Positions 9,761 through 62,574 are shown, counted from the stretch's first letter. The stretch is DNA of 64,000 nucleotides from an uncultured Bifidobacterium sp. (GCA_964561105.1 CAZLOH010000008.1:3093-67092), one strand, 5' to 3'. Notes: generated by a model from the letters alone, not told the origin. Numbers and translations: made by a program.

Positions 9761-9829
9761 ATTTTCGTGTGCGGAATCGCCGGCGATGCCGCCTGCCGTG
9801 TCGCCCGAATTCTGGAAACGGCCGGCAGT

Positions 9830-10474: not shown

Positions 10475-10632
10475 AATCCGATTCGTCCTCCTACTCCTCA
10501 CTTTAGCACGGGACAAAAAGCGCGCCGCAAAAGAATTTTGGCCCACCGTCCACGACGACTCCGCTGGCTGGAATCGGGACAGATTGGGAAAATGCCAGGA
10601 TGTGCGCGATTCCCCCGCTGAGCACGCGCGGA

Positions 10633-10660
10633 TTGCCAACGGTCGCTCTCCGGTTAAACT
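10633..10660 (+). promoter_or_regulatory. Sigma70-like promoter for the HAD-NUDIX/folB operon, probably leaderless
   Basis: TTGCCA-16 nt-TAAACT, with the GTG start 6 nt after the -10 box. Confidence 0.6.
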
Positions 10661-10666
10661 GCGAGC

Positions 10667-11764: not shown

Positions 11765-11767
11765 CCC

Positions 11768-12154
11768 ATGTCAAAAATCACAATCGTTGATCTGGAAGTG
11801 CAATATCACGTCGGGGTGCCCGACGAGGAACGCGCCCACCCCCAACGCCTGCTCATTACGGTGGACCTGACGCATGATTTCTCGTCGGCGGCCCTGACGG
11901 ATCGCGTTACCAAGACGATTGATTACTTCGACGTGTCGCAACGCATTCTCCAGTTCGGCCAGGACCGCAGTTGGAAGTTGATCGAAAAAGTGGCCGTGGA
12001 TATCGCGGACATGATCCTCGGCGAGTTTCGTCCCGAGGCCGTGACGGTAACGGTGAAAAAATTTGTTCTGCCCCAGGCCAATCACGTTTCGGTCAGCATC
12101 ACGCAAAACCGCTCCGGCAGTGGCGTCAAGCGGGCGGGCTGGGGAATCCCGTGA
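11768..12154 (+). CDS. folB: Dihydroneopterin aldolase
   Basis: HVGVPDEER...Q, TIDY, KLIEKVA and VTVKK, all typical of FolB. Confidence 0.88.
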   Translation: MSKITIVDLEVQYHVGVPDEERAHPQRLLITVDLTHDFSSAALTDRVTKTIDYFDVSQRILQFGQDRSWKLIEKVAVDIADMILGEFRPEAVTVTVKKFVLPQANHVSVSITQNRSGSGVKRAGWGIP

Positions 12155-12581
12155 TGTAAGTCTCCAACTGATGAATGGCGGAAGTCTGGTGCGAGATGAT
12201 CGAGTTCACCAGGTCGCCAATGGAAATCACCCCGAGGATTCTTGGCCCGGCCACCACCGGCAAATGGCGGATGCGATGTTCGGTCATCAACAACATGCAG
12301 TCCTCCACCGTCTGGTCCGGACCAACGGAGATCACCTTGCCCGAAATGATGTCCCGCACCGGCGTCTCCCGGGAGGATCGCCCCTTGAGCGCCACCTTTC
12401 GGGTGTAATCCCGTTCGGAGATGACTCCCAGCAGTTGCTCGCCCTGGGTAACCAACAACGCCCCCACGTTCTTTTCCGCCATCACCTGGATCGCCTCCAG
12501 AACCGTGGCCTCCGGCGAAACGGTCCAGACGACGCTGCCCTTGTGCGCGAGGATTTCACTGATTTGAATGGAATGAGTCAT
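12126..12581 (-). CDS. CBS-domain pair protein
   Basis: Two CBS repeats (NVGALLV, GVISERDYTRKV, HRIRHLPV, GVISIGDLV). Its 3' end overlaps the convergent folB. Confidence 0.9.
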   Translation of the reverse strand: MTHSIQISEILAHKGSVVWTVSPEATVLEAIQVMAEKNVGALLVTQGEQLLGVISERDYTRKVALKGRSSRETPVRDIISGKVISVGPDQTVEDCMLLMTEHRIRHLPVVAGPRILGVISIGDLVNSIISHQTSAIHQLETYITGFPSPPA

Positions 12582-12977
12582 AAGCGGGAAGCAATGGTTA
12601 AACCGGCGGGCAGGAGCGACCAGACCACGATGCTGTCACCGAAGGCACGACGACCACTTGGGCCGGATTTGCCCTTCGCCTGCCCCTGCAGTTCCTCAAC
12701 CTGGATTCTGGCCGTGACATTGCACCGAAGGTAACACACGAGCGGGTGGCGTGGACACAAAAAAAGCGGCACGCGCACTCCGATGGATCCTGCTGAAAAA
12801 CCCAGGATCTACATGGCGAAATCTGAAATAGCTTGAAATGTTCCCAATTCCGAAATCCGTTTGAAGAAAAAAATTGACAACCAAACACCGTTCAAGTTGC
12901 CTTGCTGACAGAAAGCCCGAGCCTATTACAAGCGCAACGCTTGTTACTCCCGTTTTCGAAACCAGAAAGTAACAAAA

Positions 12978-14201
12978 ATGAAGATCTTGATTAAGATTGG
13001 CTTGTTGTTCACATTCGCCTTTGTTCAATCCGCGTACTCAATGCAGGGGAGCTATCCCAGGTGGGATGGCTTCTTTGGCAGCCAGAATTTCTACGGCTAC
13101 TCTGTTTCTACGCCTGCGGTTGGGGGCACTTATGGTTCGGTGTTGTATTACACGTCTCACGATCCAGGTGGAGATTTAGTTTTTGTTCGGGACAGCTACT
13201 ACCAGACAGAAAATTTGGTCGCAGGAGTGAATGCTGGAGGCGTGATATATGCGATCTGCAAAGGAAATGACGGACTATACATTGCTGGCTATTTCAGTAG
13301 TGTGAATGGTGTCCCCGCAACGAATGTGGCAAAATTAACCGGATCGGGTTGGGTTGGGCTCAACACGACGTTAGTGCCAGTCGCAGTCGCTGCTGGTAAC
13401 AACGGGACTGTGTACATCGGCACTCAAAATACTACGAGCACTTGCGATCATGACGACGTTCAAGTATTTCTGAAATGGAACCCCAATGCGTTACAGTGGC
13501 AAACTGTAGGAGGGGGAATGGAAATACTTGGTACAAGCCAGGCTGGAGTTCATTGTTTAGCCATCGACCAGACGGACGGCGTTAGCGTGTTTGTAGGTGG
13601 TAACTTCTTGGGAGGATCAGGCGTTTACTCCCCAAACCTCATAAAGTGGAATGGACAGACACACGCTTGGGTGGCCATGGGGAGTGGGCTGGTCGCCGAT
13701 CCCGGAACTATTCTGGATTGCAACCACAACGAATTTTTAAGTCCCATTTCGCAAAGTTGGGTAACCGAAATAGCCGTCGCAGCAAGCACCGAGGTCTATG
13801 TGGCAGGCAGGTTCTACGGGGGGATTGCTCGGTTTAGTTCAACTGGCAACCGGCTTTCCTTTGGTACACTTCTTAAGGGCGGAGGGGGGGAGGAGGGATT
13901 TGGAATAGCTTACTTAAATGGAGTGGTCTATGTGTCTGGGCTTTTCGACAGCGTAAGCGACGGCGTAAGCAACACTTCAGCCAATGGGGTAGCGCAGTGG
14001 CACGCAAACATTTGGAGCAGCTTGAGTTGCGGTCTGTGGTCACCAGACGGACTTGCCACAGGTGGAAAACTAGCAGTCACGGCGAATAGCGTAATCGTGT
14101 TTCAGGCGGGTCCAAATGGTTATCAGAATGCAGGTTGCGAGTCTCTCGATCAGGTACCCGCTCGATGGCAAATCTATGCGGACAGTCTTCTTCCACATTG
14201 A
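12978..14201 (+). CDS. Low-GC secreted protein with beta-propeller-like repeats (GxF...NVAxW...W..LG)
   Basis: Signal peptide MKILIKIGLLFTFAFVQSAYS and repeats TNVAKLTGSGWVGL, NLIKWNGQTHAWVAMGSGL and NGVAQWHANIWSSL. Two sampled 60-nt lines are 45% and 53% GC. Confidence 0.7.
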   Translation: MKILIKIGLLFTFAFVQSAYSMQGSYPRWDGFFGSQNFYGYSVSTPAVGGTYGSVLYYTSHDPGGDLVFVRDSYYQTENLVAGVNAGGVIYAICKGNDGLYIAGYFSSVNGVPATNVAKLTGSGWVGLNTTLVPVAVAAGNNGTVYIGTQNTTSTCDHDDVQVFLKWNPNALQWQTVGGGMEILGTSQAGVHCLAIDQTDGVSVFVGGNFLGGSGVYSPNLIKWNGQTHAWVAMGSGLVADPGTILDCNHNEFLSPISQSWVTEIAVAASTEVYVAGRFYGGIARFSSTGNRLSFGTLLKGGGGEEGFGIAYLNGVVYVSGLFDSVSDGVSNTSANGVAQWHANIWSSLSCGLWSPDGLATGGKLAVTANSVIVFQAGPNGYQNAGCESLDQVPARWQIYADSLLPH

Positions 14202-14613
14202 CTGACGACCCCTCCGATTTGCAAGCAGCAAGAGGCGTTTACGAATCCGGATTGGTGCTTCATAGTTTGAGAGTTGGTTGTTCTAAAAAATATTTGGTGA
14301 TTCACAATGCATCAGTCCCCTCTGCCTCAAATATATCCGAGGCAGAAGGGCTATGGTTCTGTTCGACGCAGAAATCGCAGCACTCCATGATTCGGTGTAG
14401 CGCGTTGTGATTTTTGTCAAAGGTGTTTTGATTGTTCAGACTGGAAGGCTTTTGGACGAATCGGCCAGCTGTTGCCAATCCACCACCGCTCCGCATTGAC
14501 TTTTGTAATTATTCCGCTTGCAAAAGCTGCTCCTGACAGGCATTTTTGCCCCATCAAGCCTTCCGTGAGGACAAACCCGGTGGCGCCATCACTCTAGCTA
14601 AGGTCAAACTGAT

Positions 14614-15480
14614 ATGAAAAATCGAAAGACAGGTTTCACCCTGATCGAACTTCTGGTGGTCATTGCCATCATCGCCATCCTCGCGGCCATGTTGTTGCCC
14701 GCCCTGGCCAAGGCCAAGACCAAGGCCCAAGGCATCCTTTGCATGAACAACACCAAGCAACTCATGCTCGCCTGGCACATGTACGGCGTTGATAACAATG
14801 ACGCCATTGTCGGCAGTTATCACGGTGGTGATGCCCAAGGGGGCGCTGCGGGCAACGATCCAAAAAAGTCGCCGTGGGTGACTGGCTGGTTGGACTGGAG
14901 TACCAGTACCGACAACACCAACACTCTGTTTTTAACCGAGGAGAAGTACGCCAGACTCGGGAAGTATTTGGGCAAGAATAAGAATGTATTCCAATGCCCG
15001 GCGGACCACTACGTCAGCACGGTCCAGGCGAGGATGGGCTGGTCCGCACGCTGTCGGAGCTTGTCCGGCAACATTGGTGTGGGAGATGGGAATGCCGATG
15101 CATCAGGCGCTCCTTGGGACACGATCTATAAACACATCAAGAAAACGACCGATTTTCAATATCCCAGTCCTGCGGAAACATGGGTCTATCTGGACGAACA
15201 TCCCTGCAGCATCAACGACGCAGGTTTTTTTAATCCTCATGCCAACTCGTGGATTGACCAGCCGGCTTCCTACCATAATGGCGCAGCTGGATTCTCCTTC
15301 GCCGACGGCCATTCCGAAATCCACAAATGGACGGCTTCGCTCTCGACCCCACAGGCCAAGGCCATCAATACCACCTTTAACGGCGTCACCGCTACTTCCG
15401 TGGCGGCCAAAGACCGGGACATCTCCTGGATGAGCTATCACGCCGGGCGACGGACTCCCACATACTACGGTGGATATTAA
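14614..15480 (+). CDS. Prepilin-type N-terminal cleavage/methylation protein with H-X9-DG motif (DUF1559-like)
   Basis: [23 protein letters not shown] at the N-terminus; [12 protein letters not shown] is H-X9-DG. Confidence 0.92.
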
Positions 15481-15587
15481 GTCGCAATAAGCGACGAGGC
15501 AGGGACGGACTCACCGGATCAACCCGGGCGTTGCTCCTCGTCTTTTGAGTCGGGCGGTAACAGCGTGTCCGCGCGGCACGGACAAAC

Positions 15588-17309
15588 TTACACCCCACGT
15601 CCGGCTTGCCTGGCCAGTTGCGAATACATGCTTGCCTTCGCGTGAAACTTTGGGTCGGCGTCGAGTTCCCTCGCGGTTTGCGGCAGCCGGGCCGACCAGT
15701 TGGACGCGGAAGTCGAACCGGGCACATTGAAGCGCGCCGTCAGCGCAAACACGTCCTGGACTTGAAAGACGGCGAGCCAGGAATTTGATTCCAGAACCGC
15801 GCGGGTGAAAGCCTCCTGCAATTCCCCGTTGAATTCGCGGGGCGGCTCCGCGCCCCGGGCCAGCCCGGCAAAATCCATCAGGTGTTGCAGCTCGCGCCGG
15901 TTATTCGCCACGTCCCGGCCTGATTCAATGTTGGCCCAACATTCCTGCCACAGCAGCGCAATCGGCGTGTGATCGTGGGTCGCGGGCTGGGCCAGCGAGA
16001 GGCGGGGATATTGCTTCGGATCGGCGTAGGAGCCATCCGCTTCCCGGAACAGCATCGGGATGCGAAAGCCGGGCGTGCCCAACTTCTCGAGCGTGGGCGG
16101 AACGTATTCCGGCACGCAGCCCAGGTCTTCGGCCACCACGGTCGTTTCCCCGGACGCCTCCAGCACGACGCGCAGGATTTCCTCCCCTTGCGCCTGGTTG
16201 GCCCGCTTGTGCTCTTCCGAATCGTCCGGGAACTGCTTGAAACCGGGCAGCCGTCCCCCCGTGCGTTCGGCCGCCTGAGGTTCGTCGAGCGGCAGAAACT
16301 CCGCGTTCCGATCCGGTGTCCAGGGAAACGAATAGATGCGAAAGAAGCCCAGGACATGATCAATGCGGTACAAATGAAACACCTGCCGGATGTTGCCGAC
16401 GCGTGTGCGCCACCACGCGAACTGGTGCCGGCGCAGTTCATCCCACCGGTAGTTGGGGATGCCCCAGTTCTGCCCCCACTTTTCGGTGAATGGATCCACT
16501 TTGAACGTCCGCTCCGGAGGCGCGCCGCCGCTCCAGTCGAGATCAAAGATGGTGCGATTGGCCCAGACATCGGCGCTGTAACGTCCGACGCCGAACGGAA
16601 TGTCACCCATCAGATAAACCTTTTTCGCCGTGCCGTAGTCCTTCACCGCCTGCCACTGGGCAAAGGCAATCCACTGCACGTAGGCAAAGAAGAGCTGCCG
16701 GCGATTCAGTTCCGCGCGGCGCGGCTCCGGGAGCGACAACAGCCAGGTGCGCGCCCGGCGCGGCCTCTGATGCTCCTGCGGCCAGCGATCCCACGCGGGC
16801 GAATTGCCGTTCTGCTCCATCAACGCGCGGAACAACACGTAGTCCGACAACCACTCCGCGTGCTCGCGCAGGAAGCCGCGGAACCCGGCGGCACGTTCAG
16901 TCTCCGCGTTGAAATGACGTTTGAGAAAACTCTCGAACGCAACCTCGAGCAAGGCGCGCTTGAGCGCCTTGACCCGGGGATAATTCACCGGCCCGGCGCG
17001 CAACTCTTGCAGCAATCGGGGTGTGGCCAGCTTGCGAAAGGCCCTCGGGGACAAATCCGGCAGTTGCTCCGGCGTCAGGGCCAGCGTCGTCGGCTCGATG
17101 GCAAGCGAGCTGATGGCGTTGTAAGGCGAATTGTCATCGCTAATTTCATTGATCGGCAGCGTCTGGAAAATGTTCAGCCGATGACGCTGGCACCAGTCAA
17201 TCATCTGGCGCACGCCTTCCGTGTCGCCAATGCCCAGATCCGCCTCGGTGCGGATGGCAAAGGTGGGTTCGAGGATTCCGGCAAGCGACTGGTCGGGACT
17301 TAATTTCAT
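15588..17309 (-). CDS. malQ: 4-alpha-glucanotransferase (amylomaltase, GH77)
   Basis: GIGD, SPYNAISS, MGDIPFGV, GQNWGIP, YRIDHVLGFFR, AEDLG and ATHDH. Start set at MKLSPD. Confidence 0.9.
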   Translation of the reverse strand: MKLSPDQSLAGILEPTFAIRTEADLGIGDTEGVRQMIDWCQRHRLNIFQTLPINEISDDNSPYNAISSLAIEPTTLALTPEQLPDLSPRAFRKLATPRLLQELRAGPVNYPRVKALKRALLEVAFESFLKRHFNAETERAAGFRGFLREHAEWLSDYVLFRALMEQNGNSPAWDRWPQEHQRPRRARTWLLSLPEPRRAELNRRQLFFAYVQWIAFAQWQAVKDYGTAKKVYLMGDIPFGVGRYSADVWANRTIFDLDWSGGAPPERTFKVDPFTEKWGQNWGIPNYRWDELRRHQFAWWRTRVGNIRQVFHLYRIDHVLGFFRIYSFPWTPDRNAEFLPLDEPQAAERTGGRLPGFKQFPDDSEEHKRANQAQGEEILRVVLEASGETTVVAEDLGCVPEYVPPTLEKLGTPGFRIPMLFREADGSYADPKQYPRLSLAQPATHDHTPIALLWQECWANIESGRDVANNRRELQHLMDFAGLARGAEPPREFNGELQEAFTRAVLESNSWLAVFQVQDVFALTARFNVPGSTSASNWSARLPQTARELDADPKFHAKASMYSQLARQAGRGV

Positions 17310-17549
17310 TTTGGCGGCCGGAGTGTGGCAGGAGCTCTGGCCAAACTCAATGGGCGTGAGGCGGCGATCACCCCGCCGCGTGGGGCAGCGACCGACAAGC
17401 CTCGGTCGTCTGGTCCTGCAGGCCGGCTTCCCCAACCTGGCGTTTCGAATGTGAAGTGCCCGGGGAAGGCAACGAAGGTTGTCCTCCAAAAAGAGTCAAT
17501 CCCCGCCGAATGGACCCCGGCGGGGATTGCTCCGGAACCAACCGAAAAT

Positions 17550-18233
17550 TCAGGCGGGCACTTCGCGTTGCACCCAAGAGGTGGCGTATTGCGTCAGTTC
17601 GGAGGCGTCCTTGAGGTTGAGCTTCCGTTTGATCTGCTCGCGATAGTATTCGACAGTCTTGACGCTCAGATGAAGTTCGCTCGCGATTTCCTTGGTCTTT
17701 TTCCATTGACCGATCAGATGAAACACTTCCACTTCGCGATCGCTCAGGGACTTGATCGCCGGTTGCTGCACATCCGTCTGGCCGCGCACCTGTTGCTGGA
17801 GCATCTTGGCCCCCAGCTTGTCGCTCACATACACGCTGCCCGCCAGCACTCGGCGAATGGCCGTGACAATCTTCTCCAGCGCCTCCTGCTTCATCAAGTA
17901 GCCGAGCGCCCCGGCGCGGAAGGCAATCTCGGCGTAAACCGTTTCATCATGGACGCTGACCACCAGGATCGGGAGCGCGGGAAACTGGGCTTTGATGTTG
18001 CGGATCAATTCCAGCCCGCTGCTATCCTTGAGCGACAGATCCGCGATGATGAGATCGGCCTTGAGCCGGAGGATGGCATCGAGCGCTTTGCGCGCGTCCT
18101 CTTCTTCCCCGCAGACCACCAGGTCGTTTTGCCGATTGATGAGCTGGGCAATTCCAAATCGCACCACGGCATGATCGTCCACCAGCAGAATTTTTTTCCG
18201 GTTGTCTTTGACTTCCGCGTCTTTGGTTTGCAT
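17550..18233 (-). CDS. NarL/FixJ-family response regulator (REC plus LuxR HTH)
   Basis: LLVDDH, IADLSL (phospho-Asp), LSDREVEVF...SVKTVEYYREQIKRKL. Confidence 0.93.
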   Translation of the reverse strand: MQTKDAEVKDNRKKILLVDDHAVVRFGIAQLINRQNDLVVCGEEEDARKALDAILRLKADLIIADLSLKDSSGLELIRNIKAQFPALPILVVSVHDETVYAEIAFRAGALGYLMKQEALEKIVTAIRRVLAGSVYVSDKLGAKMLQQQVRGQTDVQQPAIKSLSDREVEVFHLIGQWKKTKEIASELHLSVKTVEYYREQIKRKLNLKDASELTQYATSWVQREVPA

Positions 18234-18533
18234 CAGTTGTTAGGAAATGTTTGCACGGCCTCTGTTATGGTGTCCGCGTAGTGCAAGTTGGAAGCCAAAT
18301 TCGCGCCATTCGCGATTCCAGCGGTTCAATTCACCACACTGCAAGCCGGTTGTCCCAAGCCGGGACAGGCCGGCGGCAGATCAAGACAAGCGGGTTGAAT
18401 TCTCCCTGTCCGTGGGCGACGGCAGCATTTCCTTTTGATTCCGCGCGCCTGACCGACGAATGGTTGCCGGCCACCACGCTCCGAGCGGTGAATGAATTGA
18501 CGCGAAATTTTATTTGGGCAATGTATCGCGCCG

Positions 18534-19793
18534 ATGGGAACTGAAACCCTCCCCCCCAATCCGTGGATGCTGCTGCCGTTTGTCGTTTTGCTCGGCACCA
18601 TCGCTTTGGCTCCGCTGTGCGCGGCCGACTGGTGGGGAAAACACTATCCCAAAGTGGCGCTCGCCCTGGGCGCCATCACCCTGGGCTATTACCTGGTTGG
18701 CCTGCACGCTTCCGGACGGGTGCTTCAGGTGGCGCACGAGTATGCGAGCTTCATTGCGCTCATCGGCTCGCTGTTCATCGTGGCCGGCGGCATCCACATT
18801 AATGTCAAAGGCGAAGCCACGCCCGCGGCAAATGTGTTGTTCCTGCTCGTCGGCGCGGTCGTGGCCAATCTTCTGGGCACCACCGGCGCTTCCATGCTTT
18901 TGATTCGCCCGTGGATCCGGATGAACAAATATCGCGTCACCGGGCATCACATCGTGTTCTTCATTTTCATCGTGTCCAACGTGGGCGGCTGCCTCACGCC
19001 CATCGGGGATCCGCCCTTGTTTCTGGGCTACCTCAAAGGCGTACCGTTCTGGTGGGTGGCCCGGCAGTGCTGGCCAATGTGGGCCACCGGCCTGGCCATA
19101 CTGCTGGCAATGTTTTACGTTCTCGACCGCCGCAACTTTCAACGTGCGCCGCAACCGGTCCGCACGAAGGAAACCGAATCCGCTCACTGGCGTTTCGATG
19201 GCTTGGGCAATCTCTTTTTTCTGGCGGTCATCCTCGGGGCGGTGTTCATCAACCAACCGGTGTTCCTGCGCGAAGGCCTGATGCTCGCGGCGGCGCTGGG
19301 GTCCTATTTCACGACGCGCGCCGACATCCACGAGGCGAATCATTTCAATTTCCATCCGATCAAGGAGGTGGCCATCCTGTTCATCGGCATTTTTGCCACC
19401 ATGATTCCGGCCCTGGACTGGTTGCAACTCAACGCCGGCCGGCTCGGCGCGCCGACCCCCGGAGTTTTCTTCTGGAGCAGCGGCGCGTTGTCCAGCGTGC
19501 TGGATAACGCGCCCACGTATCTGAGCTTTTTCAGCGTAATGATCGGGGCCGCGCCCGCCGGCGAGATGCAGCACCTGTTGACCACGCAAGCGCCCACGCT
19601 CGTCGCCATCAGCGTGGGGGCCGTGTTTTTCGGCGCGAACACCTACATTGGCAACGGCCCCAACTTCATGGTCAAAGCCATCGCCGACCACCAAAAGATC
19701 AAAACCCCGACGTTCATCGGCTATGTGGTCAAGTACACCCTGCCCTGCATGGTGCCGATGCTGCTCATCGTGTGGTTGATCTTCTTTCGCTGA
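18534..19793 (+). CDS. Putative Na+/H+ antiporter or IT-superfamily membrane transporter
   Basis: Multi-TM protein with GTTGASMLLIRP, SNVGGCLTPIGDPPLFLG, SSVLDNAPTY and TYIGNGPNFMVK. Confidence 0.8.
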   Translation: MGTETLPPNPWMLLPFVVLLGTIALAPLCAADWWGKHYPKVALALGAITLGYYLVGLHASGRVLQVAHEYASFIALIGSLFIVAGGIHINVKGEATPAANVLFLLVGAVVANLLGTTGASMLLIRPWIRMNKYRVTGHHIVFFIFIVSNVGGCLTPIGDPPLFLGYLKGVPFWWVARQCWPMWATGLAILLAMFYVLDRRNFQRAPQPVRTKETESAHWRFDGLGNLFFLAVILGAVFINQPVFLREGLMLAAALGSYFTTRADIHEANHFNFHPIKEVAILFIGIFATMIPALDWLQLNAGRLGAPTPGVFFWSSGALSSVLDNAPTYLSFFSVMIGAAPAGEMQHLLTTQAPTLVAISVGAVFFGANTYIGNGPNFMVKAIADHQKIKTPTFIGYVVKYTLPCMVPMLLIVWLIFFR

Positions 19794-26268: not shown

Positions 26269-27417
26269 ATGAACCTTAACAACGAAGAAATCCGCCGCTA
26301 TTCACGGCACCTGATCCTGCCGGAAGTCGGTCTGGCCGGACAAAAGAAAATCAAAGCCACCAGCGTCCTGTGCATCGGCGCGGGCGGCCTCGGCTCGCCC
26401 ATCGGCATGTACCTCGCCGCCGCCGGCATCGGCAAGATCGGCATCGTGGATTTCGACCAGGTGGACGTGTCCAACTTGCAACGGCAGATTCTCCACACCG
26501 ACGCCGACGTGGGCCGGTCCAAGGCGGAATCCGCCAAGGAAACCATCGTGGGCATCAATCCCCACTGCGAAGTGGTGCTGCACCAGACCGCCATCAATTC
26601 CGGCAACGCCCTCGACCTCATCCGCCCCTACGACATCGTGGTGGACGGCACGGACAATTTCCCGACCCGCTACCTCACCAACGACGCCTGCGTGCTGCTC
26701 AAGAAGCCGAATGTCTATGGCTCCATCTTCCGCTTCGAAGGCCAGGCCAGCGTGTTCGCGCCGCATCTCGGCGGACCCTGCTATCGCTGTCTCTATCCCG
26801 AACCGCCGCCACCCGGCATGGTGCCGAGTTGCGCGGAAGGCGGCGTGCTCGGCGTGTTGCCCGGCATCATCGGCTGCATTCAGACCACGGAAATCCTGAA
26901 ACTCGCGCTCGGCAAAGGCACCTCGCTCGTCGGGCGCCTGCTCCTGTTCAACGCGCTCGACATGAAGTTCCGCGAACTCAAGCTGCGTCGCGACCCGGCA
27001 TGTCCGATCTGCGGTGACCATCCGACGATCAAGGAATTGATTGATTACGAACAATTCTGCGGCATCCAACCCGCACCCGCCGAACCGGAGAGCAATCCCG
27101 ACGAAGTCACCGTGCAGGACATGAAGCAGGCGTTAGACGATCCGAAGTTAGGCATCAAGGTCATTGACGTGCGCGAGCCGGACGAATACGAGATTGCGAA
27201 AGTGGACGGCGTGCCGTTGCTGCCCTTGAGCCAGATCGAATCACGCTTCACCGAACTCGATCCGAACCAGACCTATTACCTCCACTGCAAAGGCGGCGTG
27301 CGTTCGTTGAAGGCGCTGAACTTCCTGCGGCAACAGGGATTCAAATACCTCAAAAGCGTCAAAGGCGGCATCGCGGCGTGGTCGGATGAAATTGACCGAA
27401 ACGTGCCGAAGTATTGA
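26269..27417 (+). CDS. moeB: Molybdopterin-synthase adenylyltransferase/sulfurtransferase (ThiF/MoeB plus rhodanese, MoeZ-type)
   Basis: RYSRHLIL, GAGGLGSP, SNLQRQ, DGTDNFPTRYL, CYRCLYP and CPICG; rhodanese domain IDVREPDEY...HCKGGVRS...GGIAAW. Confidence 0.93.
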   Translation: MNLNNEEIRRYSRHLILPEVGLAGQKKIKATSVLCIGAGGLGSPIGMYLAAAGIGKIGIVDFDQVDVSNLQRQILHTDADVGRSKAESAKETIVGINPHCEVVLHQTAINSGNALDLIRPYDIVVDGTDNFPTRYLTNDACVLLKKPNVYGSIFRFEGQASVFAPHLGGPCYRCLYPEPPPPGMVPSCAEGGVLGVLPGIIGCIQTTEILKLALGKGTSLVGRLLLFNALDMKFRELKLRRDPACPICGDHPTIKELIDYEQFCGIQPAPAEPESNPDEVTVQDMKQALDDPKLGIKVIDVREPDEYEIAKVDGVPLLPLSQIESRFTELDPNQTYYLHCKGGVRSLKALNFLRQQGFKYLKSVKGGIAAWSDEIDRNVPKY

Positions 27418-27444
27418 AGCGAGGCAATTCACCGCAAAGGCGCA
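27364..27444 (+). repeat. Invariant 81-bp core of the array unit, copy 1 (last 54 nt of moeB plus 27 nt downstream)
   Basis: GGCGGCATCGCGGCG...GTATTGAAGCGAGGCAATTCACCGCAAAGGCGCA, identical at 28787-28867 and 30015-30095. Confidence 0.95.
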
Positions 27445-27866
27445 GCGCGACCGAGTCACAAGCCAAGGGGCGCGGCTGTGCTGAAAGCCAGCCGCAGCAG
27501 CTACACCTTCATAGATCGGTTGGGGAGGGGTAACACGACCCGGCGTTCGAATGTGCTGCGGCTGGTGCTGCGCACACAGCCGCGCTCCGGAAAAATCTTT
27601 GCAGCACGAAACGAAGTTGGGAGATAGCACTGCAAAGAAGTGCAGTCGCAAAGAAAACCCGTCAGGGCTGGCATATCTGTAGTCTGACCATCGGTTGACG
27701 AACCAAGCCCCGCTCAGGGGCGACATCATTCGCGGGTCGGAATATGCCGCTCCGCTGGAGCTTGTGATTTGTTGGGTTGGCAATCTACAATGATGTCGCA
27801 CCGATGGTGCTGGATGCTTGGATGAGCTTTGCGCCTTTGCCCCTTGGCGGCTTTGCGTTGCTTCGG
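27418..27866. repeat. Composite nested palindromic (REP-like) element R1
   Basis: Outer inverted repeat CGCAAAGGCGCA...TGCGCCTTTGC. It encloses a GGGGCGCGGCTGTG...CACAGCCGCGCTCC module and a CCCGTCAGGGCTGGCATAT...GCTCCGCTGGAGCTT module. Confidence 0.85.
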
Positions 27867-27917
27867 GGTATCACCGCTTGGAGCGAGGAGATTGATTCCA
27901 CAATGCCGAGGTATTGA
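27867..27917 (+). pseudogene. Diverged copy of the last 17 codons of moeB (GITAWSEEIDSTMPRY*)
   Basis: In-frame alignment to the moeB C-terminus GIAAWSDEIDRNVPKY*. Confidence 0.85.
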
Positions 27918-27943
27918 GCAGTCCCTGCCGACGGGAGAATCAC

Positions 27944-27973
27944 ATTGCCAATCAATGGCAATAGATATATGCT
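27944..27973 (+). promoter_or_regulatory. Promoter of TA cassette 1 with an operator palindrome over the -35 box
   Basis: TTGCCA-17 nt-TATGCT, 7 nt before the ATG at 27981; perfect inverted repeat ATTGCCA-atcaa-TGGCAAT at 27944-27962. Confidence 0.7.
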
Positions 27974-27980
27974 TCCAGGC

Positions 27981-28244
27981 ATGAAGATGAACACCGTCAA
28001 CATCTCGCTGCCGACGGCAATGAGCGAGTTTGTGCGCAAAAGCGTGGAGCGCGATTACGGCAACGTCAGCGAGTTCTTTCGGGACCTTCTGCGCGAGCGG
28101 ATGCGACGCGAGATCGAAGCCGACGTTACGTTTTTGAACGACGCGACCGAAGGCGCACCGCCTGGCCCGACGGAAGCCGAGATTCAGGAGATCCTCACGA
28201 TTCAAAAGCGGGTACGGAAGAAACTCCATGCGCGTGGTCTTTGA
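27981..28244 (+). CDS. Ribbon-helix-helix (ParD/CopG-like) antitoxin
   Basis: TVNISLPTAMSEFVRKSVERDYGNVSEFFRDLLR RHH pattern; overlaps the downstream PIN gene. Start set after the promoter. Confidence 0.82.
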   Translation: MKMNTVNISLPTAMSEFVRKSVERDYGNVSEFFRDLLRERMRREIEADVTFLNDATEGAPPGPTEAEIQEILTIQKRVRKKLHARGL

Positions 28245-28635
28245 CGCGAATGTCGCCGCTTCGGCAGTCGTATTCCGGGGAGAGGCTTGGGCCTGTCTCG
28301 TGAAGCTGGCGCGCAGACAAGTGTTTGCGTTTGGCACAGCGTTCACAATGGAGGAGACACGAGAGACTGCCACTGAGTTGATCCTTCATCGCAAGGCGAG
28401 ACACAACGCGGCGGGCGCGCTCCTCTGGTATCTGGAAAATGTGCGGCAAGTTCAGCCCGCCCCGCTGGGCAAGCAACGCAGCCGTGACGCGAAGGATGAT
28501 CCATACCTCGCCGCTGCGTTGGCTGGGCGAGCGAAAATCATCGTGAGCTACGACAAGGATTTGCTGGATTTGCAAAAGCCGTTTGGAATCGCCATCGTGC
28601 GGCCAGGCGAATTTCTGAAGCAATTGAAGGGCTGA
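28228..28635 (+). CDS. PIN-domain toxin (TIGR00305/PIN_3-like)
   Basis: MRVVFDANV and RDAKDDPYLAAA...IVSYDKDLL acidic PIN residues. Confidence 0.88.
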   Translation: MRVVFDANVAASAVVFRGEAWACLVKLARRQVFAFGTAFTMEETRETATELILHRKARHNAAGALLWYLENVRQVQPAPLGKQRSRDAKDDPYLAAALAGRAKIIVSYDKDLLDLQKPFGIAIVRPGEFLKQLKG

Positions 28636-28660
28636 ACAAATCTTGCTTTGGACTCCCGAC

Positions 28661-28840
28661 GAATCGCGCCTCACTGAACTCGACCCGAGCACGCCCTACT
28701 GCCTGCACTACAAAGCCGGCGTGCGATCGCTGAAGGCGCTGAACTTCCTGCGGCAACAGGGATTCACATTTCTCAAGAGCGTCCAAGGCGGCATCGCGGC
28801 GTGGTCGGATGAAATTGACCGAAACGTGCCGAAGTATTGA
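28661..28840 (+). pseudogene. 180-bp duplicate of the moeB 3' end (rhodanese fragment)
   Basis: Aligns without gaps to 27238-27417. It has 20 substitutions in the first 126 nt and none in the last 54 nt; the catalytic HCKGG has become HYKAG. Confidence 0.92.
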
Positions 28841-29109
28841 AGCGAGGCAATTCACCGCAAAGGCGCAAAGAAGCGGAGTCGCAAGGGAAGCCCGTCAGGG
28901 CTGGCATAATTATAGTTTGGAATCTCCGAATCAAATCAAGCTTCGTCCAGCGGCGACACCTTGTTGTAAAACAGAATACGTCGCTCCGCTGGAGCTTGTA
29001 GTTTTGCGTGGTTGGTTTTCTACAAAGATGCTGCACCTACGGTGCCGGTGTCGTGGACGATCCACACTCCCTTGCGCCTTTGCCCCTTGGCGACTTTGCG
29101 TTGCTTCGG
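28841..29109. repeat. Composite palindromic element R2 (short version)
   Basis: Same outer inverted repeat as R1 and the CCCGTCAGGGCTGGCAT module, but without the GGGGCGCGGCTGTG module. Confidence 0.85.
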
Positions 29110-29160
29110 GGCATCACCGCCTGGAGCGAGGAGGTTGATCCCAGAGTGCCGAGGTAATGA
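29110..29160 (+). pseudogene. Diverged copy of the moeB C-terminal codons (GITAWSEEVDPRVPR**)
   Basis: GGCATCACCGCCTGGAGCGAGGAGGTTGATCCCAGAGTGCCGAGGTAATGA. Confidence 0.85.
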
Positions 29161-29180
29161 GGCGGCGGCAGGAATTCGGT

Positions 29181-29678
29181 TCAACTCTCGCCAGCCCGCT
29201 TCAATGCAGCAGCCTCGACTGCTGGACTCAGCCAGAATGTCGTTCGGGTGGCCAGCAGTCCGAGCACTGGTTTCAAAGCAGGGATTTTTCCTACCGCTTT
29301 TGCGCGCAATAGAACACCCAAAGTTCCCGTGTAAGCGATGCCCAAAGCCGCCGCCGCCTTTCGTCCTCGAGCATCGTCCACCAAAAGCAACGAGCCAGGC
29401 AACTCCAAAGCCAGCGCCAAAGCCTCGGTCTCGCCGGGTTGCAGGTTGAACGGCAGCGATGAGACTCTCGCCAAGTTGTGCGGCGACTGTACCACCAGCC
29501 AGCCTTCCGCGTTAGCGCGTTGAACTTCTTGAACGCCGTAAGTTTTGGGTGATGCCGCGGTTTCGTTCCAGACCTCCGGCGGAATGTGGATGGTGGAATA
29601 AAACTCCTGGAGCAGATGGAATTGCTCGCCTGCCGCGAGCGTGATCAATACCGACAAATCAACGACGACCGCCGGCAT
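29181..29678 (-). CDS. DUF3368-type PIN-domain toxin
   Basis: VVVDLSVLI, IPPEVWNE, LQPGETEALALA and LLVDDARGRKAA...GTLGVLLRAK. Confidence 0.88.
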   Translation of the reverse strand: MPAVVVDLSVLITLAAGEQFHLLQEFYSTIHIPPEVWNETAASPKTYGVQEVQRANAEGWLVVQSPHNLARVSSLPFNLQPGETEALALALELPGSLLLVDDARGRKAAAALGIAYTGTLGVLLRAKAVGKIPALKPVLGLLATRTTFWLSPAVEAAALKRAGES

Positions 29679-29916
29679 AAGCGATGTCGTGTTCGAGATC
29701 GGTCATCGAGTAAGGCATTGGCACACGCCGTTCTCGCAAGATTTCCGTGAAACGCGCCTCCGTCATGCTGGCCACCCGCGCCGCTTTGCCAACGGGTAAA
29801 CTGCCGGAACGGTAGAGTGCGACGGCCAGTTCCAGATGCAACTCGGCTTCCGCCGCTTCCGGCTGGCTTTCCAACCGTTGGGCGAAGTCGTCTGAAACAT
29901 TTAGGGTCACACTCAT
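29659..29916 (-). CDS. UPF0175-family antitoxin
   Basis: ELAVALYRSGSLPVGKAARVASM...EILRERRVP; overlaps the DUF3368 gene. Confidence 0.88.
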   Translation of the reverse strand: MSVTLNVSDDFAQRLESQPEAAEAELHLELAVALYRSGSLPVGKAARVASMTEARFTEILRERRVPMPYSMTDLEHDIAYAGGRR

Positions 29917-29922
29917 GCCTGC

Positions 29923-29951
29923 ACTTTAGTTCGCGCTTGGGAATCAAGCAA
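29923..29951 (-). promoter_or_regulatory. Promoter of TA cassette 2 (leaderless)
   Basis: Minus strand TTGCTT-17 nt-TAAAGT, 6 nt before the ATG at 29916. Confidence 0.65.
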
Positions 29952-29961
29952 GCCACGGTGG

Positions 29962-30068
29962 AAAGCGCTGAACTTTCTGCGGCAACGGGGATTCAAATAC
30001 TCAAAAGCGTCAAAGGCGGCATCGCGGCGTGGTCGGATGAAATTGACCGAAACGTGCCGAAGTATTGA
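29962..30068 (+). pseudogene. Duplicate of the moeB 3' end (about 107 bp) carrying a 1-nt deletion
   Basis: AAAGCGCTGAACTTTCTGCGGCAAC...AAATACTCAAAAGCGTC (moeB reads AAATACCTCAAAAGCGTC), then identical to moeB up to the stop. Confidence 0.92.
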
Positions 30069-30525
30069 AGCGAGGCAATTCACCGCAAAGGCGCAGCGCG
30101 ACCGAGTCACAAGCCAAGGGGCGCGGCTGTGCTGAAAGCCAGCCGCAGCAGCTACACCTTCATAGATCGGTTGGGGAGGGGTAACACGACCCGGCGTTCA
30201 AACGTGCTGCGGCTGGTGCTGCGCACACAGCCGCGCTCCGGAGAAATCTTTGCAGCACGCAACGAAGTTGGGAGATAGCACTGCAAAGAAGTGCAGTCGC
30301 AAGGAAAGCCCGTCAGGGCTGACATATTTGTAGCCTGGCCATCGCACTCAAGCCCAAGCCCTGTAGGGGCGACATCGTGTAGCGAGACAGAATACGTCGC
30401 TCCGCTGGAGCTTGTAGTTTTGCGTGGTTGGTTTTCTACAAAGCTGCTGCACCTGCGGTGCTGGTGTCGCGGACGATCCAGACTCCCTTGCGTCTTTGCC
30501 CCTTGGCGTCTTTGCGTTGCTTCGG
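30069..30525. repeat. Composite palindromic element R3
   Basis: The first ~230 bp are nearly identical to R1; the last ~150 bp are nearly identical to R2. Confidence 0.88.
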
Positions 30526-30576
30526 GGCATCACCGCCGGGAGCGATGAGATTGTTTCCAAAGTGCCGAGGTATTGA
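30526..30576 (+). pseudogene. Diverged copy of the moeB C-terminal codons (GITAGSDEIVSKVPRY*)
   Basis: GGCATCACCGCCGGGAGCGATGAGATTGTTTCCAAAGTGCCGAGGTATTGA. Confidence 0.85.
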
Positions 30577-30666: not shown

Positions 30667-31377
30667 CTAATCTCCGCCAATCAACAAGCGGTCCACTGCT
30701 TCCCCGCCATCACCGAGCGAGAACAGGCGGTCGGAGATTTCATTCAAGGCCCGGCGCGTGGTGGTGAAGCGTTCCGAGAGTGTGCCGAGGATGCTGGTCA
30801 GTTCGTAGCGTTGCGCCAACCGATGATCGCTGGCCGCGCGGTATTGGCTGCGCCCCAGCGCCTCATAGTAATGCAAATCCGGAAAGCCGCGCTGTTCCGC
30901 CCGGAAGCGGATGCGTTCATGGAAGACGCCGGAGAGGAACAGGGAGTGGTTCCCAATGTGAACTCGGATTTGGAAGCTGGTGCGGTCATCCGCCGTTTGC
31001 AACGCGGCAAGCATTTCGAAGAAATAGTCCAGGACGTTGGGCTGGCCGGGGACGACGCAGCGCAACTGTTCTGTGCGGGCGAATTCCGCCAGCACCTCGG
31101 CCACGTAATCCGCCACGGCGCGATCCTTGATGTCGGCGCGCTGGAAAACGTGACGGACCAGGATGTAGAAATAGAAGTGAGTGGAGACACGCAGGCAACC
31201 GCGCCGTTCGAGCAGCGTGTGCAACAGCGCCGGGTCGTCGAGGATCTGGTCGCGGGTTTCCACGTCGGCGAGCAGTTTGACGAGACAATCCGCATTGCCC
31301 GTTTTCGTGCCGAGTACCGACACGATGAACTCGATGTCCTCCGCGGCGAATTGCACGCGGCAGTTGGGTTGAATCAC
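30667..31377 (-). CDS. Conserved hypothetical protein (helical, PVC-type)
   Basis: Long ORF with host-like codon usage (VIQPNCRVQFAAEDIEFIV...HIGNHSLFLSGVFHERI...YYEALGRSQY). Start moved to the GTG at 31377. Confidence 0.7.
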   Translation of the reverse strand: MIQPNCRVQFAAEDIEFIVSVLGTKTGNADCLVKLLADVETRDQILDDPALLHTLLERRGCLRVSTHFYFYILVRHVFQRADIKDRAVADYVAEVLAEFARTEQLRCVVPGQPNVLDYFFEMLAALQTADDRTSFQIRVHIGNHSLFLSGVFHERIRFRAEQRGFPDLHYYEALGRSQYRAASDHRLAQRYELTSILGTLSERFTTTRRALNEISDRLFSLGDGGEAVDRLLIGGD

Positions 31378-31654
31378 TTTCACGCTTTCAACAGTGGTCT
31401 GCGCTACTATGCCCTCGAATGGCCAGGAAGCAAAACCAGTTCCAGCGGACGGACGATGCGGTGATTCTCGACGCCGCGTCCGCAAACCGCCCTGCATCCC
31501 ATTTCCGCCTGAACACCTTGGATGCACGCAGGTCTCGCCAAAATTTTGACGCTCCTTTCCCCCGCCGTTGATCAGCGCACCAGCCACGCAGCCAGGACCG
31601 CCGCGAATTGCTGGACAGTTTTGCCCATTGTGTAGAATAGACGGCGCAGTGCCG

Positions 31655-36545: not shown

Positions 36546-36664
36546 GGAGGGCGGCTGGGTTGAAAACCAGCCGCAGCAGCGTGAATAAATGGCGGCAGTG
36601 ATTCACCAAGCAGGCTGAGTTTAACATCCGCTGCGGCTGGTCGAGGACGACACAGCCGCGCTCC
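36546..36664. repeat. REP-like palindrome of the GCGGCTG...CAGCCGCAGCA family
   Basis: GCGGCTGGGTTGAAAACCAGCCGCAGCA...CTGCGGCTGGTCGAGGACGACACAGCCGCGCTCC; related to the modules in R1/R3 and to 49295-49543. Confidence 0.8.
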
Positions 36665-36714
36665 GCGCCCATTCCGGTTCGGGGGAAGTGCCAAACTCCG
36701 CCCGGCGACGATGG

Positions 36715-49294: not shown

Positions 49295-49543
49295 GGGGCG
49301 CGGCTGTGTCGTCCTCGACCAGCCGCAGCAGTTGCCACCCAACCTGGAAATTTCACACTCGTAACACCGGGTCGGGAACCCGGCCTTCAGGACTGGGCGA
49401 ACAAAGCTTGTAGGCCGCGTGCCCACGCGGCGGGTGTCAACATTCCAAGCTGCATGTGAAACATGCGGGGTAAATCCGCCTGCCGAATCGCTGCGGCCCA
49501 TTTTTCGCGCTGGTGCGGCTGGTTTTCAACCCGGCCGCGCTCC
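49295..49543. repeat. Nested REP-like element (GGGGCGCGGCTGTGTCGTCCTCGACCAGCCGCAGCA...GCGGCTGGTTTTCAACCCGGCCGCGCTCC)
   Basis: The two arms are reverse complements of the arms at 36546-36664, with additional palindromes nested inside. Confidence 0.78.
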
Positions 49544-49651
49544 TGGACAGTGTCAGGCTGCGCGCCCCCGCCCGCGCTTCCGTCGTTTTTCCTTGGGTAG
49601 TTTCCGTGGCTTCGCCTATGCTCCCTGCCGCTGAATTTTTGATTTGTCGCA

Positions 49652-62532: not shown

Positions 62533-62574
62533 TCCACTTGCACTGAAAAAAAGCCGGCGCCGGCAAAACTCACG

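What the first reader, a model, noticed from the sequence alone, without database searches (positions are those of the whole stretch)
27238..30576. Toxin-antitoxin cassette array built on repeated copies of the moeB 3' end
Seen: the layout is moeB-end / palindromic element / diverged moeB-end / TA cassette 1 (+) / moeB-end / element / diverged end / TA cassette 2 (-) / moeB-end / element / diverged end. An 81-bp core is identical at 27364, 28787 and 30015 (spacings 1423 and 1228 bp). Each cassette carries its own promoter and an unrelated antitoxin-PIN pair (RHH plus TIGR00305-like; UPF0175 plus DUF3368), and the two point in opposite directions. No integrase or transposase lies in the window. 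Known: integrative elements often target gene 3' ends and restore them, and integron arrays carry self-promoting TA cassettes. Inference: this is an integron-like or accordion cassette array whose recombination site is the end of a protein-coding gene plus a REP composite rather than attC or a tRNA. I do not know a described system with this layout.
Basis: partly seen in the sequence, partly recalled or inferred. Interest (0 to 1): 0.85.

Follow-up and report, generated by a model that had tools for sequence, protein, structure and literature searches.

The report
Gene-tail repeats flanking toxin-antitoxin cassettes
Behind the moeB gene of an uncultured Verrucomicrobia bacterium, small foreign gene cassettes have piled up, each bracketed by a copy of the gene's last stretch. 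Close relatives carry different cassettes at the same spot, so it is a real insertion hot spot, most like known pile-ups of integrase-less mobile-element remnants.

Summary
An 83-bp block is exact at 27362, 28785 and 30013 and lies in three composite units that bracket two type II toxin-antitoxin (TA) pairs. The block holds the last 56 nt of moeB plus 27 nt downstream. No recombinase, transposase, tRNA or Rfam RNA lies in the 64 kb. Independent assemblies span the unique junctions.

All four sampled relatives with MoeB at least 92% identical, plus two more distant ones, also carry displaced moeB 3' fragments. Their cargo differs: other TA pairs, HNH, Uma2, PMT_2, a truncated DUF885. About 38 array-less relatives (MoeB 90% identical or less) have a single moeB end.

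The window's working moeB tail is a replacement. The "diverged end" is the clade's original tail, pushed downstream.

The "palindromic element" is a 230-250-bp element with conserved inverted ends built of GCAAAG repeats. Many fragment breakpoints fall on moeB sites that resemble that repeat. The same 30-nt end motif recurs in an integrase-encoding phage-like genome.

My best reading (confidence about 0.5) is serial site-specific integration of integrase-less modules at the moeB 3' end, as with CIMEs and microCIMEs or tycheposon islands, followed by homologous reshuffling. It is not an integron. The recombinase was not found. I rate it a new variant of a known kind.

The parts
26269..27417 (+). 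moeB (adenylyltransferase/sulfurtransferase, 382 aa), intact. Its last ~57 nt are a replaced 'A-type' tail (..GGIAAWSDEIDRNVPKY).
   Evidence: Pfam ThiF 1.6e-81 + Rhodanese 6.3e-14. The A tail is closest to L106's native tail, not to the clade's own.
27362..27444 (+). Copy 1 of the 83-bp exact direct repeat (candidate att core): 56 nt of moeB including the stop, a 12-nt spacer and the first 15 nt of the E2 left end.
   Evidence: Exact-match extension; alignment.
27445..27632 (+). E1: a 188-nt REP-like palindromic insert nested in the left end of E2 (units 1 and 3 only).
   Evidence: Absent from unit 2. Two-part stem of about 26 bp in the centroid fold, z-score -1.0. Partial arm matches at 36551-36665 and 49509-49544.
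27632..27866 (+). E2 copy 1: body and right inverted end of a TIR-like element. Its left end starts at about 27430 and is split by E1.
   Evidence: Ends conserved in the window (3 copies), L170 (2) and an L168 mini-copy. Terminal stem of about 35 bp plus internal hairpins, with 5 pairs kept through changes on both sides.
27861..27917 (+). A'1: displaced ancestral moeB tail (..GITAWSEEIDSTMPRY*).
   Evidence: 88-90% identical to the native tails of L001 and L002. All relatives with MoeB at least 92% identical have this tail type.
27981..28244 (+). TA1 antitoxin (RHH/ParD-like, weak match). A palindrome and promoter-like site lie at 27944-27973.
   Evidence: TIGR02606 E 6.9e-6, below the curated cut-off; promoter scan.
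28228..28635 (+). TA1 toxin, PIN domain (TIGR00305 / PIN_3). It overlaps the antitoxin gene by 17 nt.
   Evidence: Pfam PIN_3 3.3e-13. TIGR00305 scores 37.3 bits against a 29.15 cut-off.
28660..28843 (+). A2: 5'-truncated moeB 3' fragment (-181 to the stop), a pseudogene with the catalytic Cys changed to Tyr. Its last 56 nt open core copy 2 (28785-28867).
   Evidence: The part upstream of the core is only 82% identical to native moeB.
28853..29109 (+). E2 copy 2 (no E1).
29104..29160 (+). A'2: displaced ancestral-type tail, with Tyr mutated to a stop.
29181..29678 (-). TA2 toxin (DUF3368, PIN-like).
   Evidence: Pfam DUF3368 4.2e-12.
29659..29916 (-). TA2 antitoxin (UPF0175).
   Evidence: Pfam UPF0175 3.8e-18.
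29958..30071 (+). A3: 5'-truncated moeB fragment (-112 to the stop) with a 1-nt deletion. Its last 56 nt open core copy 3 (30013-30095).
30081..30525 (+). E2 copy 3 with nested E1 (30096-30283). The right-end motif at 30489-30518 (- strand) is identical to the phage-contig motif.
30520..30576 (+). A'3: displaced ancestral-type tail, followed by core chromosome.
30667..31497 (-). First gene beyond the array: a conserved Verrucomicrobia hypothetical protein of 276 aa (chromosomal flank).
   Evidence: 2666 homologues, 80-90% identical among the top hits. Logan contigs carrying it all stop at the array edge, about 30489.

Best explanation
The 3' end of moeB is an attachment region where small mobile modules without an integrase have integrated one after another.

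Shown by the sequence:
- moeB stays intact.
- Its present tail (type A) is an imported allele.
- The clade's original tail (type A') lies displaced downstream.
- Three exact 83-bp repeats delimit two modules, of 1423 bp (27445-28867) and 1228 bp (28868-30095).
- Each module holds one E2 element, one A' tail, one TA pair and a diverged moeB-like arm.
- The repeats are identical while both of their flanks differ by 10-28%.

Inferred mechanism:
1. A recombinase encoded elsewhere exchanges strands at short CAAAG[G/C]CG-like sites. It is most likely a tyrosine integrase of a phage-like or ICE-like element.
2. Such sites occur in the moeB tail at about -58, -110 and -130. They also make up the inverted ends of E2.
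3. The incoming DNA carries its own copy of the gene end, so moeB is repaired at each event and the older end is pushed downstream.
4. A-E2-A' is the smallest such insertion, comparable to a microCIME.
5. The TA pairs are cargo that resists loss.
6. Homologous recombination and gene conversion between units then reshuffle the array and give its mosaic identity.
For: Repeats and layout.

Tail replacement: all four sampled relatives with MoeB at least 92% identical, and L002, have A'-type native tails. The window's three A' copies match those tails at 88-90%. The window's functional tail resembles L106's instead.

A hot spot with variable cargo in six other genomes:
- L001: truncated DUF885, Uma2, a PemK TA pair.
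- L165: PMT_2 and a 1200-aa Ig-like protein.
- L168: M4 peptidase, a UPF0175/DUF3368 TA pair, a YafQ TA pair.
- L170: HNH and two E2 copies.
- L106: HNH and, beyond its one displaced end, a RelE/YafQ-like TA pair.
- L166: a Kelch protein.
About 38 more distant relatives have none.

Breakpoints cluster: 13 of 31 left boundaries fall at three sites. The strict motif occurs only twice in the 1149-nt gene, at -130 and -58, and both positions are boundary classes. The sequences joined on the left differ between cases.

The E2 ends are made of GCAAAG(N)CGC repeats, and the right end always abuts GGCG of the moeB tail, at -57 in the window and -106 in L170.

The 30-nt E2 end motif is exact in a 47.7-kb phage-like genome that encodes a Phage_integrase (E 1.1e-17), with at least 7 copies near int.

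The exact core between 72-90% identical flanks is the usual signature of att repeats.

Precedent: CIMEs of 1.2-13 kb and microCIMEs of 130-220 bp in tandem at gene 3' ends (PMC7563491); tycheposon arrays with partial target copies.
Against: - No integrase lies in the window or within the sequenced flanks of any of the seven arrays.
- No viral contig carries a moeB tail, and the motif-bearing phage has none in the parts read. The autonomous partner is therefore hypothetical.
- At least six classes of left boundary exist (about -53, -108, -128, -240, -322, -417). Some L168 fragments do not reach the stop codon. One att site does not predict this.
- Truncated cargo (DUF885 in L001) and moeB partial copies of 0.6 to about 1 kb (L168, L001) fit duplication and deletion as well.
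- The link between the motif and arrays is confounded by phylogeny, and 11 of 39 array-less relatives also carry the -58 motif.
Confidence: 0.5

Rival explanations
1. A homology-driven 'accordion' with no dedicated recombinase. An illegitimate tandem duplication first places a moeB 3' fragment behind whatever lies downstream. RecA-dependent recombination between the two tails then releases circles of one tail plus cargo. Because the moeB tail is highly conserved, these circles re-enter other genomes by Campbell-type single crossover. Only insertions that keep moeB whole survive, which is why fragments run to the stop codon.
For: - Variable fragment lengths of 48 to about 800 nt.
- Cargo that includes ordinary, sometimes truncated genes that are native moeB neighbours elsewhere (DUF885 in L001; a ~548-aa ORF I did not annotate sits at the same spot in L006).
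- Mosaic identity between units: units 1 and 3 are 99% identical on the left but 76% in E2, and units 2 and 3 are about 90% identical over the right-hand 213 nt (part of E2 plus A').
- A ~1-kb partial moeB copy in L001 and one of about 0.6 kb in L168.
- No integrase near any array.
Against: - Breakpoints recur at the same 2-3 motif positions with unrelated partner sequences in different genomes.
- E2 is found only in these arrays and abuts the same tail positions.
- No other conserved gene in the 64-kb window shows duplicated ends.
- The exact 83-bp block has sharp borders.
Confidence: 0.25
2. A true integron analogue. A chromosomal recombinase encoded far from the array captures and excises cassettes, using the composite A-E2-A' unit, or the CAAAGGCG motif inside it, as an attC-like site. 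The array would then be a maintained cassette store rather than decayed element remnants.
For: - Small one- or two-gene cassettes, often TA pairs as in chromosomal integrons.
- A regular alternation of unit and cassette in the window.
- Motif-linked breakpoints.
- Arrays in every sampled member of the clade.
Against: - No IntI-like gene or attC features; a mixture of cargo sizes up to 3.6 kb; truncated genes; opposite orientations; irregular fragments in L001 and L168.
- No evidence of current mobility.
Confidence: 0.12
3. Transposition-driven. E2 is a MITE- or REPIN-like element. Its transposase also uses look-alike pseudo-ends inside moeB, so it mobilises 'moeB tail + E2' composites and neighbouring DNA. 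The gene-end repeats are a by-product.
For: - Inverted ends of about 35 nt are conserved across three genomes while the interior varies or is deleted.
- L170 has a tandem [-106 tail + E2] unit of 351 bp.
- Mini-E2 occurs as simple insertions at -57 in L001 and L165, and inside a moeB pseudo-copy next to a TA pair in L168.
- The motif matches at the breakpoints.
Against: - No transposase or RAYT gene in the window or in the array loci (one DDE_Tnp_1 gene in L169, which has no clear array).
- No clear target-site duplication.
- E2 is not dispersed elsewhere in the window or in about 2.3 Mb of related loci.
- Most L001 junctions lack E2.
Confidence: 0.1
4. Assembly artefact: strain variants of the region downstream of moeB were stitched into one array.
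For: The 300-bp 99% repeat cannot be bridged by short reads alone. Short-read contigs break at the repeats.
Against: - Every unique junction (E2-A'-TA1-A2 and E2-A'-TA2-A3) is reproduced in independent assemblies of several runs, including a 97.5% variant.
- Analogous arrays occur in six other assemblies from different projects.
Confidence: 0.03

Closest known systems
CIMEs and microCIMEs accreted in tandem at the 3' end of protein-coding genes (rpmG, rpsI, fda, rplL in Streptococcus salivarius; PMC7563491)
   Same: - Integrase-less modules flanked by direct repeats that contain the 3' end of a conserved gene, which stays functional.
- Size classes match: 1.2-13 kb with cargo, against the 1.2-1.4 kb TA modules here; and 130-220 bp without genes, against E2 at about 230-250 bp and the mini-E2 copies: about 31-37 bp in L001 and L165, about 100 bp in L168.
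- Content differs between strains.
- The most decayed modules lie furthest from the gene.
   Different: - In streptococci the arrays sit next to an ICE or IME whose integrase is known. Here no integrase lies near any of seven arrays, and none has been linked to moeB.
- Here the repeated gene-end fragments vary in length (48 to about 800 nt) and fall into several breakpoint classes.
- The phylum is Verrucomicrobiota.
Phage 21 / e14 integration into icd, where the element supplies a replacement 3' end
   Same: The functional gene ends in an element-derived allele of its last codons. The original end survives downstream as a pseudo-copy. This is exactly the A versus A' relation shown.
   Different: e14 and phage 21 are single elements with their own integrase and one crossover site. 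Here there is a multi-copy array of tiny modules.
Tycheposon-seeded genomic islands of Prochlorococcus (bioRxiv 10.1101/2020.12.28.424599)
   Same: Repeated integration at one site pushes older elements outward. Remnants and partial copies of the target are scattered through the island. Cargo is diverse.
   Different: The targets there are tRNA and tmRNA genes, and many elements carry a tyrosine recombinase. Here the target is a protein-coding gene, and no element with a recombinase has been seen.
Chromosomal integron cassette arrays
   Same: Arrays of small cassettes separated by a recurring structured site. TA pairs are frequent cargo. Cassette content varies between relatives.
   Different: No IntI, attI or Pc, and no attC architecture. 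The units are direct repeats of a gene end. Cassettes have either orientation, and one carries a promoter-like site. Some cargo is truncated.

Membership tests
Integron | IntI-type tyrosine recombinase next to the array | tested here: not met
   No Phage_integrase or other recombinase family among the window's ORFs. XerD probe negative.
Integron | attC sites: 57-141-bp imperfect palindromes with RYYYAAC / GTTRRRY cores | tested here: not met
   The units are 500-680 bp and made of direct moeB-end repeats plus E2. The E2 right ends read GCGTTGCTT (window) and GCGTTAATC (L170), which do not fit GTTRRRY.
Integron | Cassettes are mostly single promoterless ORFs in one orientation | tested here: not met
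   Two-gene TA operons on opposite strands. TA1 has a promoter-like site and a palindrome.
CIME / microCIME tandem accretion at a gene 3' end | Sits at the 3' end of a conserved gene that remains intact | tested here: met
   moeB is 382 aa with full ThiF + Rhodanese domains and the same length as its relatives.
CIME / microCIME tandem accretion at a gene 3' end | Modules bounded by direct repeats (att) that include the gene's 3' end | tested here: met
   Three exact 83-bp repeats, with flanks 72-90% identical.
CIME / microCIME tandem accretion at a gene 3' end | No recombination or transfer genes inside the modules | tested here: met
   The modules hold only a TA pair, E2 and moeB fragments.
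CIME / microCIME tandem accretion at a gene 3' end | Derived from, and mobilisable by, an ICE, IME or phage whose integrase is specific for this att site | tested here: inconclusive
   No integrase in seven arrays. No viral contig carries a moeB tail. The only link is the shared 30-nt motif with an integrase-encoding phage-like genome.
CIME / microCIME tandem accretion at a gene 3' end | Presence and content vary between related genomes | tested here: met
   Different cargo in L001, L106, L165, L166, L168 and L170. None in about 38 other relatives.
Type II toxin-antitoxin modules | Small antitoxin gene followed by an overlapping toxin gene of a known toxin family | tested here: met
   TA1: ParD/RHH-like antitoxin (weak) + PIN TIGR00305, 17-nt overlap. 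TA2: UPF0175 + DUF3368, 20-nt overlap.
Type II toxin-antitoxin modules | Toxin arrests growth and the antitoxin neutralises it | not testable with these tools
   Needs expression assays.
REP / REPIN / MITE (for E1 and E2) | Inverted terminal or paired repeats able to form a hairpin | tested here: met
   E2: ends of about 35 nt pair in the consensus fold, with 5 pairs kept through changes on both sides. E1: long two-part stem.
REP / REPIN / MITE (for E1 and E2) | Many dispersed copies in the genome and a cognate transposase (RAYT or IS) | tested here: not met
   E2 occurs only in moeB arrays within 64 kb plus about 2.3 Mb of loci. No transposase in the window. The whole genome is not available.

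The most novel reading that the evidence does not exclude
A dedicated cassette-exchange system in one Verrucomicrobiota lineage. An unlinked recombinase would recognise CAAAG[G/C]CG repeats, which are present both in the ends of the E2 element and, by coincidence of codons (..V-K-G-G..), in the moeB tail. It would use the gene's 3' end as a reusable docking site, repairing the gene at each event. This would be a functional analogue of an integron built on a protein-coding gene end.
Probability: 0.17. Interest if true: 0.8.

Novelty: new variant of a known kind. Interest (0 to 1): 0.55.

Why it matters
If site-specific integration is confirmed, moeB joins the short list of protein-coding genes whose 3' end serves as a reusable docking site. 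It would be the first such site that I know of in Verrucomicrobiota, a phylum with almost no characterised mobile elements.

The locus offers three concrete handles for finding the missing recombinase: an 83-bp core, a 9-nt breakpoint motif and a conserved 35-nt element end. It also gives a marker locus for strain-level variation in environmental Verrucomicrobia.

The arrays break short-read assemblies. The cargo they hold (TA pairs, HNH and Uma2 nucleases, surface proteins) is therefore probably under-sampled in MAGs.

Tried and rejected
- Rfam and tRNA scans of the window found nothing.
- The integron reading was rejected on its defining features (see the membership test).
- A one-off tandem duplication was rejected because six other genomes carry arrays with other cargo.
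- Integrase search:
  - Pfam on all plausible window ORFs.
  - Pfam on 142 ORFs downstream of moeB in 34 relatives. The commonest neighbour was NusB, and no recombinase family appeared among the 25 families shown of 149.
This is a low-sensitivity test.
- IMG/VR scans for either moeB tail type and for the MoeB C-terminus found nothing.
- The motif-bearing phage-like genome was read over 21 kb around its integrase and has no moeB-like attP there. Its integrase has only 3 distant homologues in the protein database, so it could not be traced into Verrucomicrobia genomes.
- The exact-protein look-up of the window's MoeB found no record.
- Look-ups of the TA proteins and of the downstream gene returned only short contigs that end in the repeats. 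Population heterogeneity could therefore not be assessed.
- L167 and L169 'fragments' are probably frameshifted single moeB genes, not arrays.
- A literature search for moeB as an integration site gave only irrelevant hits.

Full report
**What is in the window.** The window is 60% G+C. By its closest MoeB matches it comes from an uncultured Verrucomicrobiota bacterium of the Pedosphaera/Limisphaerales type.

- moeB lies at 26269-27417 on the + strand and encodes 382 aa with ThiF and rhodanese domains.
- An 83-bp block is exact at 27362, 28785 and 30013, with spacings of 1423 and 1228 bp. It holds the last 56 nt of moeB plus 27 nt downstream.
- Around each block lies a composite unit. From left to right the unit has four parts:
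  - a moeB 3' fragment 'A': the native end in unit 1, a fragment from -181 in unit 2, and one from -112 with a 1-nt deletion in unit 3;
  - a 27-nt spacer;
  - an element 'E2' of about 235-245 bp, whose left end is split in units 1 and 3 by a 188-nt palindromic insert 'E1';
  - a 57-nt diverged moeB end 'A''.
- Between the units lie two TA pairs. One is RHH/ParD-like + PIN (TIGR00305) on the + strand. The other is UPF0175 + DUF3368 on the - strand.
- The window has no tRNA, no Rfam match and no recombinase or transposase.
- A promoter-like site over a palindrome precedes TA1. The scan flags nothing comparable for TA2.

**Is it real?**

- Logan assemblies of several sequencing runs contain contigs identical to 27622-28814 and 28998-30029. 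A 97.5% variant covers 27736-28760. The unique junctions A'-TA1-A2 and A'-TA2-A3 are therefore independently supported.
- Short-read contigs that carry the downstream gene all stop at about 30489, where the repeat begins.
- One caveat remains. The 300-nt, 99% repeat (27349-27648 / 30000-30299) has two ways in and two ways out. An empty site plus a 2651-bp circle would give the same junctions.

**Relatives.** Of about 45 Verrucomicrobia loci with a moeB gene that I examined, seven carry displaced moeB fragments. These are the window itself, all four other sampled genomes with MoeB at least 92% identical (L001, L165, L168, L170), and L106 and L166.

The cargo differs everywhere:

- L001: a 3'-truncated DUF885 gene, two unknown ORFs, a ~1-kb partial moeB copy, Uma2, and an RHH-like/PemK pair.
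- L165: a PMT_2 glycosyltransferase and a 1200-aa Ig-like protein.
- L168: an M4 peptidase, a UPF0175/DUF3368 pair, a 621-aa ORF and a YafQ pair.
- L170: a 93-aa ORF plus HNH, then three short tail-plus-spacer units, two of which hold an E2 copy.
- L106: HNH; beyond its single displaced end, a deaminase-like ORF and a RelE/YafQ-like pair.
- L166: a Kelch protein.

In array-less relatives the usual downstream neighbour is nusB.

**Which tail is the original?** L001, L165, L168, L170 and L002 all end MoeB with ..WSEEIDSxVP(R/C)Y. The window's three A' copies match those tails at 88-90%. The window's working tail (..WSDEIDRNVPKY) resembles L106's.

So the working end of the window's moeB was brought in, and the original end was pushed downstream. 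This is the relation known from phage 21 and e14 in icd (my own knowledge). The order 'A-type tail, short spacer, A'-type tail' recurs in L001 (12897-13324) and twice in L165.

**The element.**

- E2 has conserved inverted ends of about 35 nt built from GCAAAG(N)CGC repeats. The left end reads TCAACGCAAAGgCGCAAAGAaG. The right end reads TTGCGCCTTTGCcccTTGGCGnCTTTGCGTT.
- These ends are shared by three window copies, two L170 copies and a 100-bp mini-copy in L168. The interior varies or is deleted.
- The ends pair in a consensus fold.
- E2 was found nowhere else in the window or in about 2.3 Mb of fetched loci.
- Its right end always abuts GGCG of a moeB tail, at -57 in the window and at -106 in L170.
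- A 30-nt stretch of the end motif, identical to window 30489-30518, occurs at least 7 times near the integrase gene of a 47.7-kb phage-like genome in IMG/VR. That genome also encodes ParB/KorB-like, CsrA and sigma-70 proteins. Most of the + strand copies sit 8-15 nt upstream of ORF starts.
- That phage has no moeB-like sequence in the parts I read.

**Breakpoints.**

- I collected 31 left boundaries of displaced fragments in seven genomes. Thirteen fall at three sites: -48 to -57, -106 to -112 and -128/-129. The sequences joined on the left are unrelated between cases.
- The strict motif NAA[AG]G[GCA]CG[GC] occurs only twice in the 1149-nt gene, at -130 and -58. Both are boundary classes. The third site reads TGAAGGCGC.
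- AAAGGCGGCAT at -58 is present in 7 of 7 array genomes and in 11 of 39 others. This comparison is confounded by phylogeny.
- Other boundaries, at about -163, -181, -240, -322 and -417, show no such motif. Some L168 fragments do not reach the stop codon.

**Interpretation.** The three exact 83-bp repeats sit between flanks that are only 72-90% identical. That is the usual signature of att cores bounding tandemly integrated elements. They delimit two modules, 27445-28867 and 28868-30095.

- Each module carries an E2, an A' tail, a TA pair and a moeB-like arm that is 13-18% diverged from the resident gene. This is what an incoming attP arm would look like.
- The closest described situation is the tandem accretion of CIMEs (1.2-13 kb, with cargo) and microCIMEs (130-220 bp, no gene) at the 3' ends of rpmG, rpsI, fda and rplL in streptococci (PMC7563491).
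- Tycheposon islands are similar: successive integrations leave partial target copies behind.
- I therefore favour serial site-specific integration of integrase-less modules, followed by homologous reshuffling. The reshuffling explains the mosaic of units 1-3, the tandem tail-plus-E2 units of L170 and the irregular fragments of L168.

What is missing is the recombinase. None lies in the window or near any array, and no autonomous element with a moeB-type attP was found. For that reason a purely homology-driven accordion model keeps substantial weight. A transposition model centred on E2 and a true integron analogue remain possible.

**Verdict.**

- The 'cassette array built on the end of moeB' reading is supported.
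- The 'integron-like, undescribed' reading is only partly supported.
- It is best filed as a new variant of a known kind: accretion of att-flanked, integrase-less modules at a gene 3' end. The new features are the target gene, the phylum, and a motif shared by the breakpoints, the E2 ends and a phage-like genome.

Noticed in passing
window 58405-58728 (-): A lone PemK/MazF-like toxin gene (Pfam E 5.7e-6) far from the moeB array. I did not look for a partner antitoxin.
   Followed up: no
window ~12000-14500: A stretch with unusually low third-position G+C (0.39-0.51, against about 0.75 elsewhere). It contains a 407-aa ORF with weak beta-propeller matches (12978-14201). This is probably foreign DNA.
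   Followed up: partly
window 62567-62866 and 63664-63963: A 300-nt direct repeat at 95% identity. Its first copy starts with the prepilin-type (N_methyl) gene 62575-63492 (weak match, below cut-off); the second copy was not annotated.
   Followed up: no
window 36551-36665 and 49509-49544: Partial copies of the arms of the E1 palindrome. This suggests that E1 belongs to a dispersed REP-like family, unlike E2.
   Followed up: partly
L178 (IMGVR_UViG_3300014202_001126) 9521-19469: A phage-like genome with a 30-nt direct-repeat motif (AACGCAAAGACGCCAAGGGGCAAAGACGCA) placed 8-15 nt upstream of most + strand copies' ORF starts near its integrase. It is probably a repeated regulatory site. The genome also encodes SIR2_2-TPR, ParB/KorB-like, CsrA and sigma-70 proteins.
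   Followed up: partly
L001, L165, L168, L170 upstream of moeB: The widely conserved upstream synteny LysR-CDA-PNP-moeB is kept in the window, L166, L085 and L088. It is lost in four of the array-bearing close relatives. In L001, homology to the window begins only about 95 nt before the moeB start.
   Followed up: partly
L168 4965-7070: Three moeB pseudo-copies share a REP-like hairpin (CCGGTGAGATAGGCCGGGCCATCTCACGGGG) inserted after ..TGCGGCATCC in the linker between the ThiF and rhodanese domains. The YafQ TA pair plus a mini-E2 is inserted at the same point of a fourth copy.
   Followed up: partly
L106 1032-1604 (-) and L170 9430-9837: The HNH proteins carried as cargo match only the HNH region of the IscB model (NCBIfam E 1e-12 and 3e-7, far below the cut-off). 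They are stand-alone HNH nucleases, not IscB.
   Followed up: no
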